A DNA stretch of 64,000 nt from Minisyncoccota bacterium. Lineage in GTDB: Bacteria > Patescibacteriota > Minisyncoccia > Moranbacterales > UBA2206. The stretch covers positions 54,204 through 118,203 of the forward strand of contig JARLIA010000015.1 of NCBI GenBank assembly GCA_031291955.1, written 5' to 3'. The notes beneath the pieces were generated by a model. That model was not told where the DNA came from. It was given only the letters and a program-made list of their open reading frames with translations, and searched no databases. Positions within the stretch are counted from its first letter, which is position 1, and each line of letters starts with the position of its first letter. The translations under genes were made by a program, and so were the position numbers. Positions 23,747 through 27,203 of the stretch are shown here, one piece after another.

Positions 23747-23864
23747 GAATTAAAATTTTTAATTTCCAATTTTTAATTTTTAAACAATGTCCGAATTTTC
23801 AATTTTAAATTTAATCATTGAGATTTGTTTGAAAATTTAAAATTTAAAATTGAAAATTATTTTA

Positions 23865-24134: not shown

Positions 24135-24560
24135 CTATTTTTTCTGAATAGTCTTTTCCTTTTTTGCTTTCACTTCTTTTACTTCTTCTTTTTTCCCCGC
24201 CGCTTTCACCTTCGACTCCTTATATTTCATGCGGCTCTGCTTAGCAGTCAGGCTCCGGACGTAATACAATTTGGCTCGCCGTACCTTAGCACTTTTGACC
24301 AGTTCGACCTTTTCCACATTCTTAGACAAGACCGGCACAATCATTTCCACGCCCACGCCATGCGTCACTTTCCGCACAGTGATGGTCAAAGAAGAGCTCT
24401 GGCCGCCTTTTACGGCAATGACCAAGCCCTCAAACATCTGCGTTCTTTCCTTGGCGCCTTCTTTGATTCTGAGATAAACTTTCACGACATCCCCAGCGCG
24501 CCACTTAGCCGCCGCCTCGCCTCGCATTTCTTTATTGAGCGCGATGATTTTCTGATTCAT
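24135..24560 (-). CDS. rplS: 50S ribosomal protein L19.
   Basis: MNQKII...RAGDVVKVYLRIKEGAKERTQMFEGLVIA...GVGVEMIVPVLS is L19, here with a Lys-rich C-terminal tail. Confidence 0.92.
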   Translation of the reverse strand: MNQKIIALNKEMRGEAAAKWRAGDVVKVYLRIKEGAKERTQMFEGLVIAVKGGQSSSLTITVRKVTHGVGVEMIVPVLSKNVEKVELVKSAKVRRAKLYYVRSLTAKQSRMKYKESKVKAAGKKEEVKEVKAKKEKTIQKK

Positions 24561-24687
24561 AGTATTCTTATTATAGCAAATTATGGTTCCAAATAAAAAA
24601 ATAGCCTTAAGTGTTCCAGGCTCCTAGTTTTTTAGCCTTTTTATACTAGCCTTTTCTTCCGTTTTCGTCAAGACTGGCCAGAATTTC

Positions 24688-26112
24688 TGTAAAGAGGAAA
24701 TAGAAATGTCCGCTTTTGCGGGAAATAGAAATGTCCGGTTTGGACATTTTTGTTAGTTGTTAGCGTATTGGTATTTTCTCCATGGATGGTTGGCGGCTGG
24801 CCTGGATGGCACGGTTTTCACCAAAACCCATGGAACATCTTTTTCGGATATCTTTTTGGGTCCGGCTGGAAGTTGTTTGTAATTCAGATATTTCCCTCTT
24901 AATTTAAAATTGATTGTGCCATCGAACCTTTCTTCAACCGTAACAACTTCTTTTCTGAACATAGCCACCGACTGAGTCTCTTCCAGTTGGTACCAGATAT
25001 TTTTGTAGCTCAGGGTGTAGTCACTTCTGATGGTGCGCTCGTAATGTCTGGAAAATATTGAGGGGAATTGGTCTTTTTCCGATTGGGCCAGTTTTTTGTG
25101 CAGGTTGGCATCTGATCTGGGAATGACACCGAACTTGGCATTGAATTTGGGAATGAATGTTTTCTCTAAAAATTCATTGGCTTTGGCTACTGTGGAAATT
25201 TTGTTCAGGCGCAATTCTTTAATGAGTCTATCCTGTAGTGTTTTGAAAAGTCTCTCCACTCGGCCTTTGGCTTGTGAGCTGTGCGCGTTGATAACTCCTA
25301 CATTCAATTGAGTCATAGCTCTTTGAAATTGCGTAAGGGTGTCCGGATTCTCCTTGGCCAGCTTGTGGTTCATGGAATAGGTCGAAAACTTGTCCACGTA
25401 GATTTCATGGGGTTTAACGCTCTTTTCAAAGTATTCCTGCCAGAAATTAAAGGTTGGTTCTACGCCCTCATGCTCATCAAATTTTATGTGGGTAATCTTA
25501 CTGGTGGCGTCATCGATCGCGGCCAGCAGGCAGCATTTTTGACCCCTGTCCTCAAACCAGTATTCATAGGAACCGTCATATTGTTCCAACTCTCCAAAGG
25601 CGGATCGCCTTTGTCGCCAAGCGCGGTATTCCTGTTTCTTTTTTCTTCTTGGTTTCCATAATTCTTCCGCAATCATAATGACGCGGATTGTTTTGGCATC
25701 TCTTTTAATCCGGTGAACTTCATCCAGTTTTTCAGCTGCGAATGTCGGCCCGAAATCCGGATAATGTTCGTGCAGCAGTTTTTTGATTTTTTCAGTTTCT
25801 TTTTCCGGCAACTTTCTTTTGCTGGGCTTGCCTCTGCCGGCATGAATCAATCCTTGTAGTCCATTTTTGGCGACTTTCTTTTTTAATCGGCGGATGTGCC
25901 TGTCTGTCAGGTTGAGCATCTCAGCTGCTTCGATTCCTTTGATTTCTTTTTTAATGGCTTTTTGGATGATGTCATAGCGGCTAGCTTCTTTTTGGCTCAT
26001 GATAATGTGCTTGTCCATTGAGTTGATATTAGTTGATTGAACTAATATCTTAACTGGTTAGGACGGACATTTCTACTTCCCGCCACTAGGACATTATCAT
26101 TTCCGTGTAACA
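24688..26112 (-). mobile_element. Insertion sequence of the ISNCY family (IS1202 group), 1425 bp, with about 50-bp imperfect terminal inverted repeats.
   Basis: Left end (from 24688) is tgtaaagaggaaatagaaatgtccgcttttgcgggaaatagaaatgtccgg. Reverse complement of the right end (to 26112) is tgttacacggaaatgataatgtcctagtggcgggaagtagaaatgtccgtcc. The element is flanked by an identical 17-bp direct repeat agactggccagaatttc (24671-24687 and 26113-26129). It carries a single transposase ORF. Confidence 0.85.
24753..26018 (-). CDS. ISNCY-family transposase (HTH plus DDE integrase core).
   Basis: The N-terminus MSQKEASRYDIIQKAIKKEIKGIEAAEMLNLTDRHIRRLKKKVAKNGLQGLIHAGRGKP is characteristic of IS1202/ISNCY transposases. 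The C-terminal part has DDE-type integrase-core features. Confidence 0.8.
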   Translation of the reverse strand: MDKHIIMSQKEASRYDIIQKAIKKEIKGIEAAEMLNLTDRHIRRLKKKVAKNGLQGLIHAGRGKPSKRKLPEKETEKIKKLLHEHYPDFGPTFAAEKLDEVHRIKRDAKTIRVIMIAEELWKPRRKKKQEYRAWRQRRSAFGELEQYDGSYEYWFEDRGQKCCLLAAIDDATSKITHIKFDEHEGVEPTFNFWQEYFEKSVKPHEIYVDKFSTYSMNHKLAKENPDTLTQFQRAMTQLNVGVINAHSSQAKGRVERLFKTLQDRLIKELRLNKISTVAKANEFLEKTFIPKFNAKFGVIPRSDANLHKKLAQSEKDQFPSIFSRHYERTIRSDYTLSYKNIWYQLEETQSVAMFRKEVVTVEERFDGTINFKLRGKYLNYKQLPAGPKKISEKDVPWVLVKTVPSRPAANHPWRKYQYANN

Positions 26113-27118
26113 GACTGGCCAGAATTTCCTGAAAATCGCGCGGCGGCTCGGTTATGAAGGCATATCTTTTGCCCTCCAGCTCGAACTCCAAGCTTTTGGC
26201 ATGCAGCATTTGCCGTGCCGCACTGCTACGCATAGCGTTGCCGGCAGACCCCTTGCTTCCTTGCTTTTTCGCTTCCTTATTTATATAGATTTTGTCTCCC
26301 ACGATCGGATGACCGACCGAAAAGAGATGCACTCGGATCTGATGCGTTCGCCCGGTCTTGGGCGAAACTTCCAACAGCGAAAAATTCTCACCAGATTTCA
26401 AAACTTTATACTCGGTCACGGCCGTCCGAACTTTGGTCTGGGTTTTTCTGCCGGCCACCACCTGTTTCCGATAACTGGACGCACGCGCCAGCGGTTTGTC
26501 AATCACCCCCGAACTTCCCGGCTTCCCCAAATTACCAAAAACAATTGCCCAATAAATTTTCTTCATCTGGCGAGTTTTAAATCTTTTCTTTAATTCCTCA
26601 AAAGTTTTCTGGTTTCTAGCCGCAACGATTATTCCGCTGGTATCCTTATCCAACCGATGCACGATCCCCGGCCGCATATTCACTTGCCCTGAGTTTGTCG
26701 AAGGGTCGCCGACATTTTTTATTTCCGGCCAGGAAGCAACAAGCGCGTTGACCAAAGTATTATTTTTTTCGTGCTGATCCGGATGAACTTGCAGTCCAGC
26801 CGGTTTGTTGACCACGATAATATTTTCATCTTGAAAAATTACTTCCAATTTTATTTCTTTATTGGAAATTATTTCTGAATTATTTTCTTCCAAATTTATT
26901 TCCAGCTCATCGTTTTCTTTTAGAGAATAGCTCGGTTTTACTGTTTTATTATTAACTAAAATATTTCCGCTTTTTATATTCCGGATGATTTGCCCGCGCG
27001 TAATTTTGTCATTAAAAAAAACTCCCTCCTTCTTGTCCGCCAAATCCTTGGCGAAGGAGGAGAGGAATTTGTCGATCCGGATTCCGGCTTTATTTTTGTC
27101 GATGATTATTTTATCCAT
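26042..27118 (-). CDS. rluD: RluA-family 23S rRNA pseudouridine synthase (RluD-like; S4 domain plus PseudoU_synth_2). Its C-terminus has been replaced by an IS-encoded tail.
   Basis: S4 motif (NDKITRGQIIRNIKSGNILVNNK) and catalytic HRLDKDTSGIIVAAR. The reading frame crosses the target duplication at 26113 and ends 22 codons inside the IS. The ancestral C-terminus (...EILASLDENGRKG stop) is still readable on the other side of the IS at about 24640-24690. Confidence 0.8.
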   Translation of the reverse strand: MDKIIIDKNKAGIRIDKFLSSFAKDLADKKEGVFFNDKITRGQIIRNIKSGNILVNNKTVKPSYSLKENDELEINLEENNSEIISNKEIKLEVIFQDENIIVVNKPAGLQVHPDQHEKNNTLVNALVASWPEIKNVGDPSTNSGQVNMRPGIVHRLDKDTSGIIVAARNQKTFEELKKRFKTRQMKKIYWAIVFGNLGKPGSSGVIDKPLARASSYRKQVVAGRKTQTKVRTAVTEYKVLKSGENFSLLEVSPKTGRTHQIRVHLFSVGHPIVGDKIYINKEAKKQGSKGSAGNAMRSSAARQMLHAKSLEFELEGKRYAFITEPPRDFQEILASLLHGNDNVLVAGSRNVRPNQLRY

Positions 27119-27119
27119 G

Positions 27120-27203
27120 TGCCGCGAGAGAGACTCGAACTCTCAAACCCTTGCGAGTACCAGCTCCTAAGGCTGGCGCGTATACCAATTCCGCCATCGC
27201 GGC
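27120..27203 (-). tRNA. tRNA-Leu(TAG).
   Basis: Reverse complement is GCCGCGA TGGCGGAATTGGTATACGC G CCAGC CTTAGGA GCTGG, a long variable arm, then GAGAGTTCGAGTCTCTC TCGCGGC A. It abuts the rluD start codon. Confidence 0.85.

What the first reader, a model, noticed from the sequence alone, without database searches (positions are those of the whole stretch)
24671..26129. ISNCY (IS1202-group) element with a 17-bp target duplication inserted into the last codons of rluD.
A 1425-bp IS is bounded by an identical 17-bp direct repeat agactggccagaatttc. Its about 50-bp terminal inverted repeats contain an internal iterated motif gaaatagaaatgtccg.

The duplicated target is coding sequence of the pseudouridine synthase gene (QEILASL). 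The rluD frame now reads through the right-hand duplication into the IS, gaining 22 foreign codons. The ancestral C-terminal codons (…DENGRKG stop) are stranded on the far side of the IS.

This is a recent, still-intact insertion with a visible before/after of the target gene. It also shows the long direct repeats reported for the IS1202 group.
Basis: partly seen in the sequence, partly recalled or inferred. Interest (0 to 1): 0.6.

Follow-up and report, generated by a model that had tools for sequence, protein, structure and literature searches.

The report
Promoter-hunting IS1202-family insertion sequence
It is an intact jumping gene of the IS1202 family that clipped the last codons of a pseudouridine synthase gene, and its position, exactly 16 bp upstream of a promoter-like TTGACG box, follows a promoter-targeting rule for this branch of the family that I did not find described in the papers searched.

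Summary
A 1,425-bp IS (24688-26112, TGT...ACA tips, 421-aa DDE transposase) is flanked by an identical 16/17-bp duplication. It replaces the last 7 codons of an RluA-family (rluD-like) gene with 22 IS-encoded codons. A related genome has the uninterrupted site with one copy of the target, and homologues end in ...ILASLDENGRKG.

The element belongs to the IS1202 family, ISTde1 subgroup. Its closest named relative is ISUba1.

The new point is the choice of site. The duplication abuts a promoter-like element, TTGACG-17 nt-TAGTAT, upstream of rplS.
- In 65 independent insertions of related IS from metagenomes, 41 have TTGACA (at most 1 mismatch) 15-17 bp beyond the same end. Of these, 39 have a -10 box in register.
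- In the published insertion tables for the ISTde1 and IS1202 subgroups, a -10 box sits in register with the duplication edge, on the opposite (IRL) side, in 27/36 rows and 28/32 scripted rows (32/37 with five read by eye).
- Both papers on the family report no target for these subgroups.

So long-duplication IS1202-family elements appear to integrate immediately upstream of sigma-70-type promoters. Whether RNA polymerase or the DNA sequence is the landmark is unresolved. "Recent" insertion is not demonstrated.

The parts
24688..26112 (-). Complete insertion sequence, 1,425 bp, 5'-TGT...ACA-3'; IS1202 family, ISTde1 subgroup; transposase on the minus strand
   Evidence: The ends were fixed by comparison with about 90 related copies. 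An empty site is seen in L003.
26089..26112 (-). IRL, the terminal inverted repeat next to the transposase start (TGTTACACGGAAATGATAATGTCC)
   Evidence: It matches IRR at 17/24. The 50-nt end matches ISUba1 IRL at 43/50.
26064..26080 (-). Second, internal copy of the inner IR motif at the left end (GGAAGTAGAAATGTCCG); presumed extra transposase-binding site
   Evidence: Harmer 2023 (PMC10132070) describes the same layout for ISAjo2.
26025..26049 (-). Leader stem-loop (10-bp stem) between the binding sites and the tnp ATG; the new rluD stop codon (26042-26044) lies inside it
   Evidence: The fold z-score is below -2 in 26 of 27 related leaders, and the arms differ in sequence but stay complementary. 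Its function is inferred: it may shield tnp translation from read-through transcripts.
24753..26018 (-). Transposase ORF, 421 aa; DDE triad D148/D209/E255, extra D169/D170, Q262
   Evidence: The AlphaFold model (pLDDT 71) matches IstA, TnsB and MuA.
24724..24754 (-). Palindrome AAATGTCC-N5-GGACATTT overlapping the tnp stop codon and the inner right binding site
   Evidence: (I11). It is conserved in L004-L008. Its function is unknown.
24721..24737 (+). Second, internal copy of the inner IR motif at the right end
24688..24711 (+). IRR, the terminal inverted repeat far from the transposase start (TGTAAAGAGGAAATAGAAATGTCC); its tip read outward is TTTACA
26113..26128 (-). Target-site duplication, copy on the rluD side (GAAATTCTGGCCAGTC; encodes EILAS-)
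24672..24687 (-). Target-site duplication, copy on the promoter side
24666..24671 (-). -35-like hexamer TTGACG directly abutting the duplication; the inferred target landmark
   Evidence: The arrangement IRR-N15-17-TTGACA is seen in 41 of 65 related insertions.
24643..24648 (-). -10-like hexamer TAGTAT, 17 nt after the -35-like hexamer; overlaps the native rluD stop codon TAG (24648..24646)
   Evidence: The region is identical in L003. Promoter activity is inferred, not shown.
26042..27118 (-). RluA-family (rluD-like) pseudouridine synthase ORF, now 358 aa; the last 22 codons plus the stop (26042-26110) are IS sequence
24646..24687 (-). Stranded native 3' end of rluD (EILASLDENGRKG*)
   Evidence: Homologues P0122 and P0123 end the same way.
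24135..24560 (-). rplS (ribosomal protein L19), the gene downstream of the targeted promoter-like element
   Evidence: The same gene order is found in L003.

Best explanation
SHOWN.
- The feature is a single, structurally intact IS of the IS1202 family, ISTde1 subgroup, in a Candidatus Pacebacteria (CPR) genome.
- Its transposase belongs to the MuA/TnsB/IstA structural class of DDE enzymes, but no target-selecting ATPase gene accompanies it.
- Integration made staggered cuts 16 (or 17) bp apart, which were repaired into the duplication.
- The site was not random. One edge of the duplication abuts TTGACG, which is followed at 17 nt by TAGTAT. This promoter-like element lies upstream of rplS inside the last codons of rluD.
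- Relatives of this IS are found in the same arrangement again and again, in one orientation: IRR, then 15-17 bp, then TTGACA, then 16-18 nt, then TAnnnT.
- The published insertion lists of the ISTde1 subgroup (15-18 bp duplications) and the IS1202 subgroup (24-29 bp) show the same on the IRL side.
- The loss of 7 rluD codons is therefore a by-product of integration just upstream of a promoter whose -35 box lies in the upstream gene's tail. The core promoter, together with its native 16 bp of upstream sequence, stays attached to rplS.

INFERRED.
- One transposon end attacks the phosphodiester at the upstream edge of the -35 hexamer. The other attacks about 1.5 helical turns further upstream (about 2.5 turns in the IS1202 subgroup).
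- The landmark is most likely a promoter occupied by RNA polymerase holoenzyme (sigma region 4 on the -35 box) rather than the hexamer alone, by analogy with the short-duplication subgroup that sits 5 bp from XerC/D-bound dif sites. I put this sub-step at about 0.5.
- The biological logic is a safe haven: the element inserts next to genes without inactivating them or their promoters. That would be valuable in small, gene-dense genomes.
For: Identity of the element.

True insertion: the empty site in L003 and the C-termini of homologues.

Targeting rule in my own data, from 65 unique right flanks that are not themselves IS sequence:
- 28 have exact TTGACA and 13 have one mismatch, at offset 15 (25 flanks), 16 (15) or 17 (1) from IRR.
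- In the first tally of 68 flanks, exact TTGACA occurs at most once at any other offset from IRR, and left flanks show no enrichment.
- 39 of those 41 have TAnnnT 16-18 nt later, 24 with a TG extension. The background at shifted registers is 52/325.
- 12 of 24 flanks with a poor hexamer still have the -10 in register.
- 23 of 35 long flanks have a co-directional ORF starting 45-260 nt after the IS end.

Targeting rule in published data (Siguier et al. 2022, Table S1; scored):
- ISTde1 sheet: -10 in register on the IRL side in 27/36 rows, against 6/36 on the other side. At least three of those six rows (ISUba1, ISSmsp1, ISPlba6) show the IRR-side arrangement seen here.
- IS1202 sheet: 28/32 scripted rows against 5/32 on the other side. 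Counting five further ISSeq2 rows read by eye gives 32/37. All three IS1202 copies from S. pneumoniae obey the rule.

Prior reports: both family papers state that no target was found for these subgroups. Five further full-text searches found no report.

For RNA polymerase as the landmark:
- The -10 stays in register even where the hexamer is poor (TCTTTT, TTTCTA, AGGATT, TGTTTA).
- Many targeted promoters precede tRNA or ribosomal-protein genes.
- The transposase fold class normally relies on a partner protein for target choice.
Against: - Promoter activity of TTGACG-17-TAGTAT in this organism is not shown. A second, extended -10 (TGCTATAAT) lies just before the rplS ATG, so the targeted element may not be the main rplS promoter.
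- About a third of the related insertions lack a good hexamer, and about a fifth lack both boxes.
- The orientation differs between this clade (IRR side) and most published members (IRL side). I cannot explain this.
- Metagenome contigs are often chimeric at multicopy IS, so only one-sided flanks could be used for most sites.
- The published rows were transcribed by hand.
- Against RNA polymerase as landmark: the hexamer is much closer to consensus than in ordinary promoters. The IRR tip itself reads TTGACA or TTTACA. One published ISLaac1 copy sits at a TTGACA inside a coding region with no -10.
- The literature available to me is limited to open-access text. ISfinder and TnPedia could not be consulted.
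Confidence: 0.8

Rival explanations
1. Same element and same targeting rule, but the transposase reads the DNA itself. A domain that normally holds the IS tip (IRR tip = TTGACA/TTTACA, i.e. 5'-TGTCAA read inward) also captures a matching hexamer in the target and places the cut at its edge. The -10 boxes are there only because genomic TTGACA hexamers that tolerate an insertion are mostly real promoters.
For: - Exact TTGACA occurs in 28/65 sites and a near-consensus hexamer in 41/65, much closer to consensus than typical promoters.
- IRR tips across the family read TGTCAA.
- IS-N15-IS junctions occur where the next 'target' is an IRL tip, TGTGAAAA.
- An ISLaac1 copy sits at TTGACA inside a CDS without a -10.
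Against: - The -10 is in register in 12/24 poor-hexamer sites, against a 16% background, and in published rows with hexamers such as TCTTTT, TTTCTA, AGGATT and TGTTTA.
- Among the published hexamers with two or three mismatches, most keep TTG and vary in the ACA half, as in sigma-70 recognition (my knowledge), whereas the invariant part of the IS tip is TGT (= ACA).
Confidence: 0.35
2. Untargeted insertion. The IS landed by chance in the dispensable tail of rluD, and promoter-adjacent copies are simply the ones that survive selection.
For: - The RluD C-terminal tail is variable among homologues, so the site is tolerant.
- Harmer 2023 and Siguier 2022 found no target for long-duplication members.
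Against: - Selection cannot produce a single-base register between the duplication edge and the hexamer, nor a fixed orientation.
- At most one exact hexamer occurs at any other single offset.
- The same register is seen in two independent data sets and in two subgroups with different duplication lengths.
Confidence: 0.04
3. The 17-bp repeat is a pre-existing duplication or an assembly artefact, and the element is not a simple insertion.
For: None found.
Against: - L003 has a single-copy target in the uninterrupted rluD-rplS junction.
- Identical junctions occur in two further independent assemblies.
- Related IS copies have their own 14-16 bp duplications at other sites.
Confidence: 0.01

Closest known systems
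ISUba1 and the ISTde1 subgroup of the IS1202 family (Siguier et al. 2022 bioRxiv 10.1101/2022.12.17.520857; Harmer et al. 2023 PMC10132070)
   Same: - Size, a single 400-500 aa transposase, and TGT...ACA tips.
- Bipartite ends and a 15-17 bp duplication.
- DDE signature with the extra DD and Q at E+7.
- IRs 43/50 and 37/50 identical to ISUba1, which is also from a CPR bacterium and is also followed by N15-TTGACA-17-TAGAGT.
   Different: - It is a distinct element. The closest transposases in public data are 92% identical or less, apart from the same locus in two other assemblies.
- The subgroup-typical 5-10 aa insertion between the second D and E is only 1-3 aa here.
- This clade faces the promoter with IRR. 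Most listed subgroup members face it with IRL.
ISAba32/ISAjo2 subgroup of the IS1202 family (dif/pdif hunters)
   Same: - Same family, fold and end architecture.
- Orientation-specific insertion at a fixed distance from a short landmark, with the duplication exactly filling the gap between the IS end and the landmark.
- No accessory targeting gene.
   Different: - The landmark there is the XerC arm of a dif-like site, with a 5-bp duplication, always on the IRL side.
- Here the landmark is a -35/-10 promoter element, with a 16-bp duplication, on the IRR side.
- Transposase identity is only 34-40%.
Tn7 (TnsB with TnsD at attTn7), phage Mu (MuA/MuB), IS21 (IstA/IstB)
   Same: - The transposase fold class: two N-terminal HTH domains, an RNase H core and a beta-barrel.
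- TGT/ACA tips and multiple binding sites per end.
- For Tn7, the safe-haven logic of inserting beside rather than inside an essential gene.
   Different: - Those systems select targets through an AAA+ partner (TnsC, MuB, IstB) and, for Tn7, a dedicated DNA-binding protein. This IS encodes only the transposase.
- Their duplications are 5 bp, or 4-8 bp for IS21 (figures from my own knowledge, not checked here).
Ty3 and Ty1 retrotransposons of yeast (integration directed to Pol III promoters by the transcription machinery)
   Same: The concept only: integration at a fixed short distance from a transcription-initiation landmark, which spares coding sequence.
   Different: - Those are eukaryotic retroelements tethered to TFIIIB or Pol III subunits, and the tethering is experimentally established.
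- Here a tether to bacterial RNA polymerase is only an inference.
- This comparison rests on my own knowledge, not on a tool result.

Membership tests
IS1202 family | Element of 1.3-2.0 kb with one transposase ORF of about 394-507 aa | tested here: met
   1,425 bp and 421 aa.
IS1202 family | Outer ends 5'-TGT...ACA-3' with imperfect 24-26 bp terminal inverted repeats | tested here: met
   TGTAAA at 24688 and GTAACA ending at 26112; 17/24 identical.
IS1202 family | [quoted passage not shown] | tested here: met
   GGAA(A/G)TAGAAATGTCC at 24696-24711 and 24721-24736; at 26065-26080 and (3 mismatches) 26089-26104; spacer 8-9 bp.
IS1202 family | [quoted passage not shown] | tested here: met
   D148, D169, D170, D209, E255 and Q262 are invariant in an alignment with ISKpn21, ISEsa1, an Acinetobacter plasmid ISNCY-family transposase and a Microvirga transposase.
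IS1202 family | Transposase sequence related to named members (25-56% identity in Harmer 2023) | tested here: met
   34-40% identity to those members. tblastn E-values of 1e-58 to 1e-74 to plasmid copies annotated IS1202-like/ISNCY. NF033594 scores 390 bits against a cutoff of 250.
IS1202 family | TnsB/MuA-like architecture: N-terminal HTH domains, RNase H core, beta-barrel | tested here: met
   The model has pLDDT 71. Foldseek gives IstA, TnsB and MuA at E = 1e-9 to 7e-4. Pfam shows sub-threshold HTH_32/29/28 and rve matches. TM-scores are low (about 0.3) because domain orientations differ.
ISTde1 subgroup | Target-site duplication of 15-17 bp | tested here: met
   16 bp plus one ambiguous base. 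Relatives have 14-16 bp.
ISTde1 subgroup | Insertion of 5-10 aa between the second D and E (present in 43 of 67 members) | tested here: inconclusive
   Only 1-3 residues longer than the four short-duplication references in that interval. No ISTde1-group protein sequence was available for direct alignment.
ISTde1 subgroup | Ends resemble those of listed subgroup members | tested here: met
   IRL 43/50 and IRR 37/50 identical to ISUba1 as printed in Siguier Table S1.
ISAba32/ISAjo2 subgroup (dif hunters) | 5-6 bp duplication, with IRL 5 bp from a XerC/D site | tested here: not met
   The duplication is 16 bp, and the flank on the IRL side is rluD coding sequence. No dif-like site was searched for explicitly.
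RluD (23S rRNA pseudouridine 1911/1915/1917 synthase) | Score above the NCBIfam equivalog cutoff | tested here: not met
   NF008385 scores 172.7 bits against a cutoff of 351. The RluA subfamily model TIGR00005 scores 244 bits against 192.7, so the gene is safely an RluA-family synthase with an S4 domain. 'rluD' is a plausible but unproven name.
Sigma-70-type promoter (the proposed target) | -35 and -10 hexamers with 16-18 bp spacing that drive transcription | tested here: inconclusive
   TTGACG-17-TAGTAT matches 9 of 12 consensus positions. The region is identical in L003 although RluD is only 73% identical. Transcription cannot be tested with these tools.
Copy-out-paste-in IS (circular intermediate) | IRR-spacer-IRL junctions with a spacer of duplication length | tested here: inconclusive
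   A related IS assembles as a circle of IS + 15 bp (L047). Three further IRR-N15/16-IRL junctions were seen. Tandem genomic copies would look the same.

The most novel reading that the evidence does not exclude
The long-duplication branches of the IS1202 family (ISTde1 and IS1202 subgroups, widespread from CPR bacteria to Streptococcus pneumoniae) are promoter hunters. They use promoter-bound RNA polymerase holoenzyme, or sigma region 4 on the -35 box, as their integration landmark. One end attacks at the upstream edge of the -35 hexamer and the other attacks 1.5 or 2.5 helical turns further upstream. The unusually long duplication is then the preserved UP-element region. To my knowledge this would be the first bacterial transposable element shown to be tethered to the transcription-initiation machinery.
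Probability: 0.4. Interest if true: 0.85.

Novelty: new member of a known kind. Interest (0 to 1): 0.6.

Why it matters
As an object, this is one more IS1202-family insertion, and that part is ordinary. Following it up gives a sequence-level answer to a question both recent papers on the family left open: what do the members with 15-29 bp duplications target?

If the rule holds, it has several consequences:
- It explains the odd, quantised duplication lengths of the family (5, about 16, about 27 bp).
- It shows a way for an IS to persist in tiny, gene-dense genomes without killing genes.
- It turns IS flanks into free promoter annotations for uncultivated bacteria.
- It predicts regulatory effects, because everything upstream of about position -52 (or about -63) is separated from the core promoter.
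- It offers a single-protein system for inserting DNA just upstream of promoters.
- It is directly testable with cultivable hosts that carry active family members, for example IS1202 in S. pneumoniae and ISLaac1 in Lactobacillus acetotolerans.

Tried and rejected
- Search for other copies of the IS in the window: none. Only the four end motifs match.
- Search for an empty-site allele of the same species. The protein database holds only the 358-aa fused RluD at 100% identity, in a cluster of one member, and no 343-aa form. The exact transposase occurs only at this same locus in two other assemblies. So 'recent or polymorphic' could not be supported.
- tblastn against plasmids: thousands of hits. 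The one examined for ends (Microvirga, H1/L109) has a 6-bp duplication, so it belongs to the short-duplication subgroup and says nothing about this question.
- PDB search by sequence: nothing meaningful. A fold search was needed instead.
- Rfam scan of the rluD-rplS spacer for an L19 leader or other RNA: only chance-level hits.
- RNAalifold on a MAFFT alignment of the tnp leaders returned no structure, because loop indels put the arms out of register. Folding each leader on its own showed the hairpin.
- Considered that TTGACA might be part of the IS. Rejected, because the hexamer is present at the empty site and lies outside the duplication.
- Considered a junction promoter in the IS circle (IRR tip -35 plus GATAAT in IRL). 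With a 15-bp spacer the boxes are 29 nt apart, so this is not supported.
- Considered a hybrid promoter at the rluD/IRL junction (TGGCCA-17-GATAAT). It is only a weak consensus match and was not pursued.
- Checked tRNA genes downstream of flanks lacking an ORF: none found there.
Full report
**1. The observation**

The 17-nt repeat AGACTGGCCAGAATTTC is present, identical, at 24671-24687 and 26112-26128. Between the copies lies an element whose ends read TGTAAAGAGG... (from 24688) and ...CCGTGTAACA (to 26112).

All relatives examined later begin with TGT and end with ACA. On that basis the element is 24688-26112 (1,425 bp). The duplication is 16 bp (GAAATTCTGGCCAGTC on the minus strand) with a 17th base that cannot be assigned.

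The two terminal 24-mers match at 17/24. [quoted passage not shown] This is the layout Harmer et al. described for ISAjo2 (PMC10132070).

One ORF of 421 aa fills the element (24753-26018, minus strand).

**2. It is a true insertion into the end of an RluA-family gene**

- The ORF 26042-27118 (minus) has S4 and PseudoU_synth_2 domains. It passes the RluA-subfamily model but not the RluD equivalog cutoff.
- It now ends ...QEILASL + 22 IS-encoded residues, with its stop inside the IS leader.
- On the other side of the IS the frame continues EILASLDENGRKG*.
- The two closest homologues end ...ILASLDENGRKG and ...ILASLDENERKG.
- In the contig that encodes the first of them, rluD and rplS are adjacent. 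The junction carries a single copy of the target (one mismatch), and its sequence bridges both window flanks base for base.
- The same insertion, identical over 1.6 kb, is present in two other assemblies. The fused protein is in NCBI as a Candidatus Pacebacteria MAG protein.
- No uninterrupted allele of this species was found, so 'recent' is not demonstrated.

**3. Family**

- The transposase scores 390 bits on NCBIfam NF033594 (ISNCY family; cutoff 250) and far below cutoff on the IS481, IS21 and IS630 models.
- It was aligned with ISKpn21, ISEsa1, an Acinetobacter plasmid ISNCY-family transposase and a Microvirga transposase, all fetched from plasmids. It is 34-40% identical to them and shares D148, D169/D170, D209, E255 and Q262. 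These are the extra DD pair and the Q at E+7 that both family papers give as the IS1202-family signature.
- An AlphaFold model (pLDDT 71) finds IstA, TnsB and MuA as best structural matches.
- The 16/17-bp duplication places it in the ISTde1 subgroup.
- Its ends are 43/50 and 37/50 identical to those printed for ISUba1, a Candidatus Uhrbacteria member of that subgroup.
- The subgroup's 5-10 aa insertion between the second D and E is not evident here: only 1-3 aa.

**4. Why the IS is at this site: my own data**

To define the ends I collected relatives: 15 loci from species-representative genomes, almost all Patescibacteria MAGs; 10 places carrying one 81%-identical transposase; and 80 metagenome loci.

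Many metagenome contigs are chimeric across the multicopy IS, so matched duplications are seen only in some. They are 14-16 bp. The flank beyond IRR, however, is strikingly uniform: 15-17 variable bases followed by TTGACA.

After removing duplicates and flanks that are themselves IS ends, 65 flanks remain:
- 28 have exact TTGACA and 13 have one mismatch, starting 15 (25 flanks), 16 (15) or 17 (1) bases from the IS.
- In the first tally of 68 flanks, exact TTGACA occurs at most once at any other offset, and the flank beyond IRL shows no enrichment.
- 39 of the 41 have TAnnnT 16-18 nt after the hexamer, 24 of them preceded by TG. The background for that test at shifted registers is 52/325.
- Of the 24 flanks with a poor hexamer, 12 still have the -10 box in register.
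- 23 of 35 long flanks carry a co-directional ORF starting 45-260 nt downstream.

The window obeys the rule: IRR, then 16 bp, then TTGACG (24671..24666), then 17 nt, then TAGTAT (24648..24643). The promoter scan had listed this site independently.

The hexamer lies in the Leu-Asp codons of the native rluD tail, and the -10 overlaps the native stop codon. This stretch is identical in L003 although the two RluD proteins are only 73% identical.

**5. The same rule in published data**

Siguier et al. deposited flanks for 229 insertions. I read the ISTde1 and IS1202 sheets, transcribed the rows that have a duplication, and scored them by script.

| Sheet | Duplication | Rows | Hexamer within 1 mismatch of TTGACA, IRL side | -10 in register, IRL side | -10 in register, IRR side |
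|---|---|---|---|---|---|
| ISTde1 | 15-18 bp | 36 | 15 | 27 | 6 |
| IS1202 | 24-29 bp | 32 | 16 | 28 (mostly TATAAT) | 5 |

- Scoring reads outward from the duplication edge. On the IRL side this is the reverse complement of the left flank.
- At least three of the six ISTde1 rows scoring on the IRR side (ISUba1, ISSmsp1, ISPlba6) show the arrangement seen here, and ISNitsp1 is similar.
- The three S. pneumoniae IS1202 copies obey the rule. Of five further ISSeq2 rows read by eye, four also obey it, giving 32/37 for the sheet.
- Many of these promoters directly precede tRNA genes.
- One published element, ISLaac1, has copies with 17-bp and with 28-bp duplications.
- The Vibrio ISVbsp4 clade does not fit the rule.

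[quoted passage not shown] Siguier et al. report targeting only for the 5-bp subgroup. Five further full-text searches found no report of promoter targeting by these or other IS. ISfinder and TnPedia could not be consulted.

**6. Mechanism**

Shown:
- An orientation-specific, single-base-register association between the duplication edge and a -35/-10 pair.
- It holds in two independent data sets and in two subgroups whose duplications differ by about 11 bp.

It follows from standard DDE chemistry (my inference) that one transposon 3' end attacks at the upstream edge of the hexamer and the other attacks 15-17 or 24-29 bp further upstream on the other strand. Repair then leaves the native upstream sequence on the promoter side. 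The core promoter and its UP-element region stay intact.

Selection alone cannot give this register, so target choice must be mechanistic.

Two landmarks are possible.
- I favour promoter-bound RNA polymerase or sigma, at about 0.5. The -10 stays in register when the hexamer is degenerate. Strong promoters (tRNA, ribosomal protein) are frequent targets. The sister subgroup sits at protein-bound dif sites. This fold class otherwise uses protein partners for target choice.
- Direct read-out of TTGACA, perhaps by the domain that holds the TTGACA-like IRR tip, is the main rival, at about 0.35. The hexamer is unusually close to consensus, and one published insertion has a hexamer but no -10.

I cannot explain why this clade presents IRR to the promoter while most published members present IRL.

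**7. Consequences in the window**

- RluD keeps its S4 and catalytic domains. Only a tail that varies among homologues is exchanged, so loss of function is not expected (inference).
- rluD, tnp and rplS are co-directional. rluD translation now ends 23 nt before the tnp ATG, inside a leader stem-loop (26025-26049).
- That stem-loop is structurally conserved in 26 of 27 relatives with different arm sequences. It may limit transposase expression from read-through transcripts (inference).
- Whether TTGACG-17-TAGTAT is the working rplS promoter is unknown. An extended -10, TGCTATAAT, also lies just before the ATG.

**8. Verdict**

The finding as written is correct and, taken alone, ordinary: a new member of a known IS family, in a phylum where that family is already recorded (ISUba1). 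Its value lies in what the site reveals. The long-duplication IS1202-family elements appear to be promoter hunters. That rule is visible in already published tables but was not reported in the literature I could search. I rate the rule as about 0.9 likely to be real, and its being unpublished as about 0.65.

Noticed in passing
L047 1-1588; L088 about 2321; L100 about 2321; L102 about 71; L027 about 1893: A related IS assembles as a circular contig: a 127-nt terminal overlap gives a unit of 1,461 bp, which is IS 1,446 bp plus a 15-bp spacer. Three other contigs carry IRR-N15/16-IRL junctions and one carries a 0-bp junction. These could be circular transposition intermediates with a spacer of duplication length, or tandem genomic copies.
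   Followed up: partly
window 26025-26049 (minus strand): A two-tier stem-loop lies immediately upstream of the transposase start codon. It is conserved as a structure: 26 of 27 relatives have z below -2 (mean -4.6), with arm sequences that differ but stay complementary. The fused rluD stop codon lies inside it.
   Followed up: partly
window 24724-24754: The palindrome AAATGTCC-N5-GGACATTT overlaps the transposase stop codon and the inner right-end binding site. It is conserved in several relatives. It could be a third, inverted binding site or a terminator-like hairpin.
   Followed up: no
L019 1240-1500, L021, L025: One relative (P0016, 81% identical) sits 63 bp downstream of cas2. Its IRR flank reads N15-TTTACA-16-TAATAT, which is probably the CRISPR leader promoter, so the IS is wedged between the cas operon and the array.
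   Followed up: no
Published table (Siguier 2022, Table S1): ISVbsp4 rows: The three Vibrio ISVbsp4 insertions lack the -35/-10 pattern. They share GGGGCA(A/C) 12-13 nt before the 16-17 bp duplication. This clade may use a different landmark.
   Followed up: no
Published table (Siguier 2022, Table S1): ISLaac1 rows: The same IS has one copy with a 17-bp duplication (at a TTGACA inside a coding region, with no -10) and one with a 28-bp duplication (with a TG-extended TATAAT in register). This suggests the distal cut can shift by one helical turn.
   Followed up: partly
window 27118-27203: The rluD start codon (27118) directly abuts the 3' end of tRNA-Leu(tag) (27119-27203), with a second tRNA-Leu just upstream. 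The gene seems to be transcribed with the tRNAs.
   Followed up: no
window 24135-24560 and 23750-23860: L19 (rplS) carries a roughly 25-residue lysine-rich C-terminal extension beyond the Pfam domain. The spacer between tRNA-Gly and tRNA-Phe is made of AT-rich short repeats (AATTTTTAATTT...).
   Followed up: no
window 26093-26121 (minus strand): The promoter scan lists a junction site with TGGCCA (in the duplication) as -35 and GATAAT (in IRL, part of the conserved ATGATAATGTCC motif) as -10, 17 nt apart. It is a weak match that could drive tnp from the flank.
   Followed up: no
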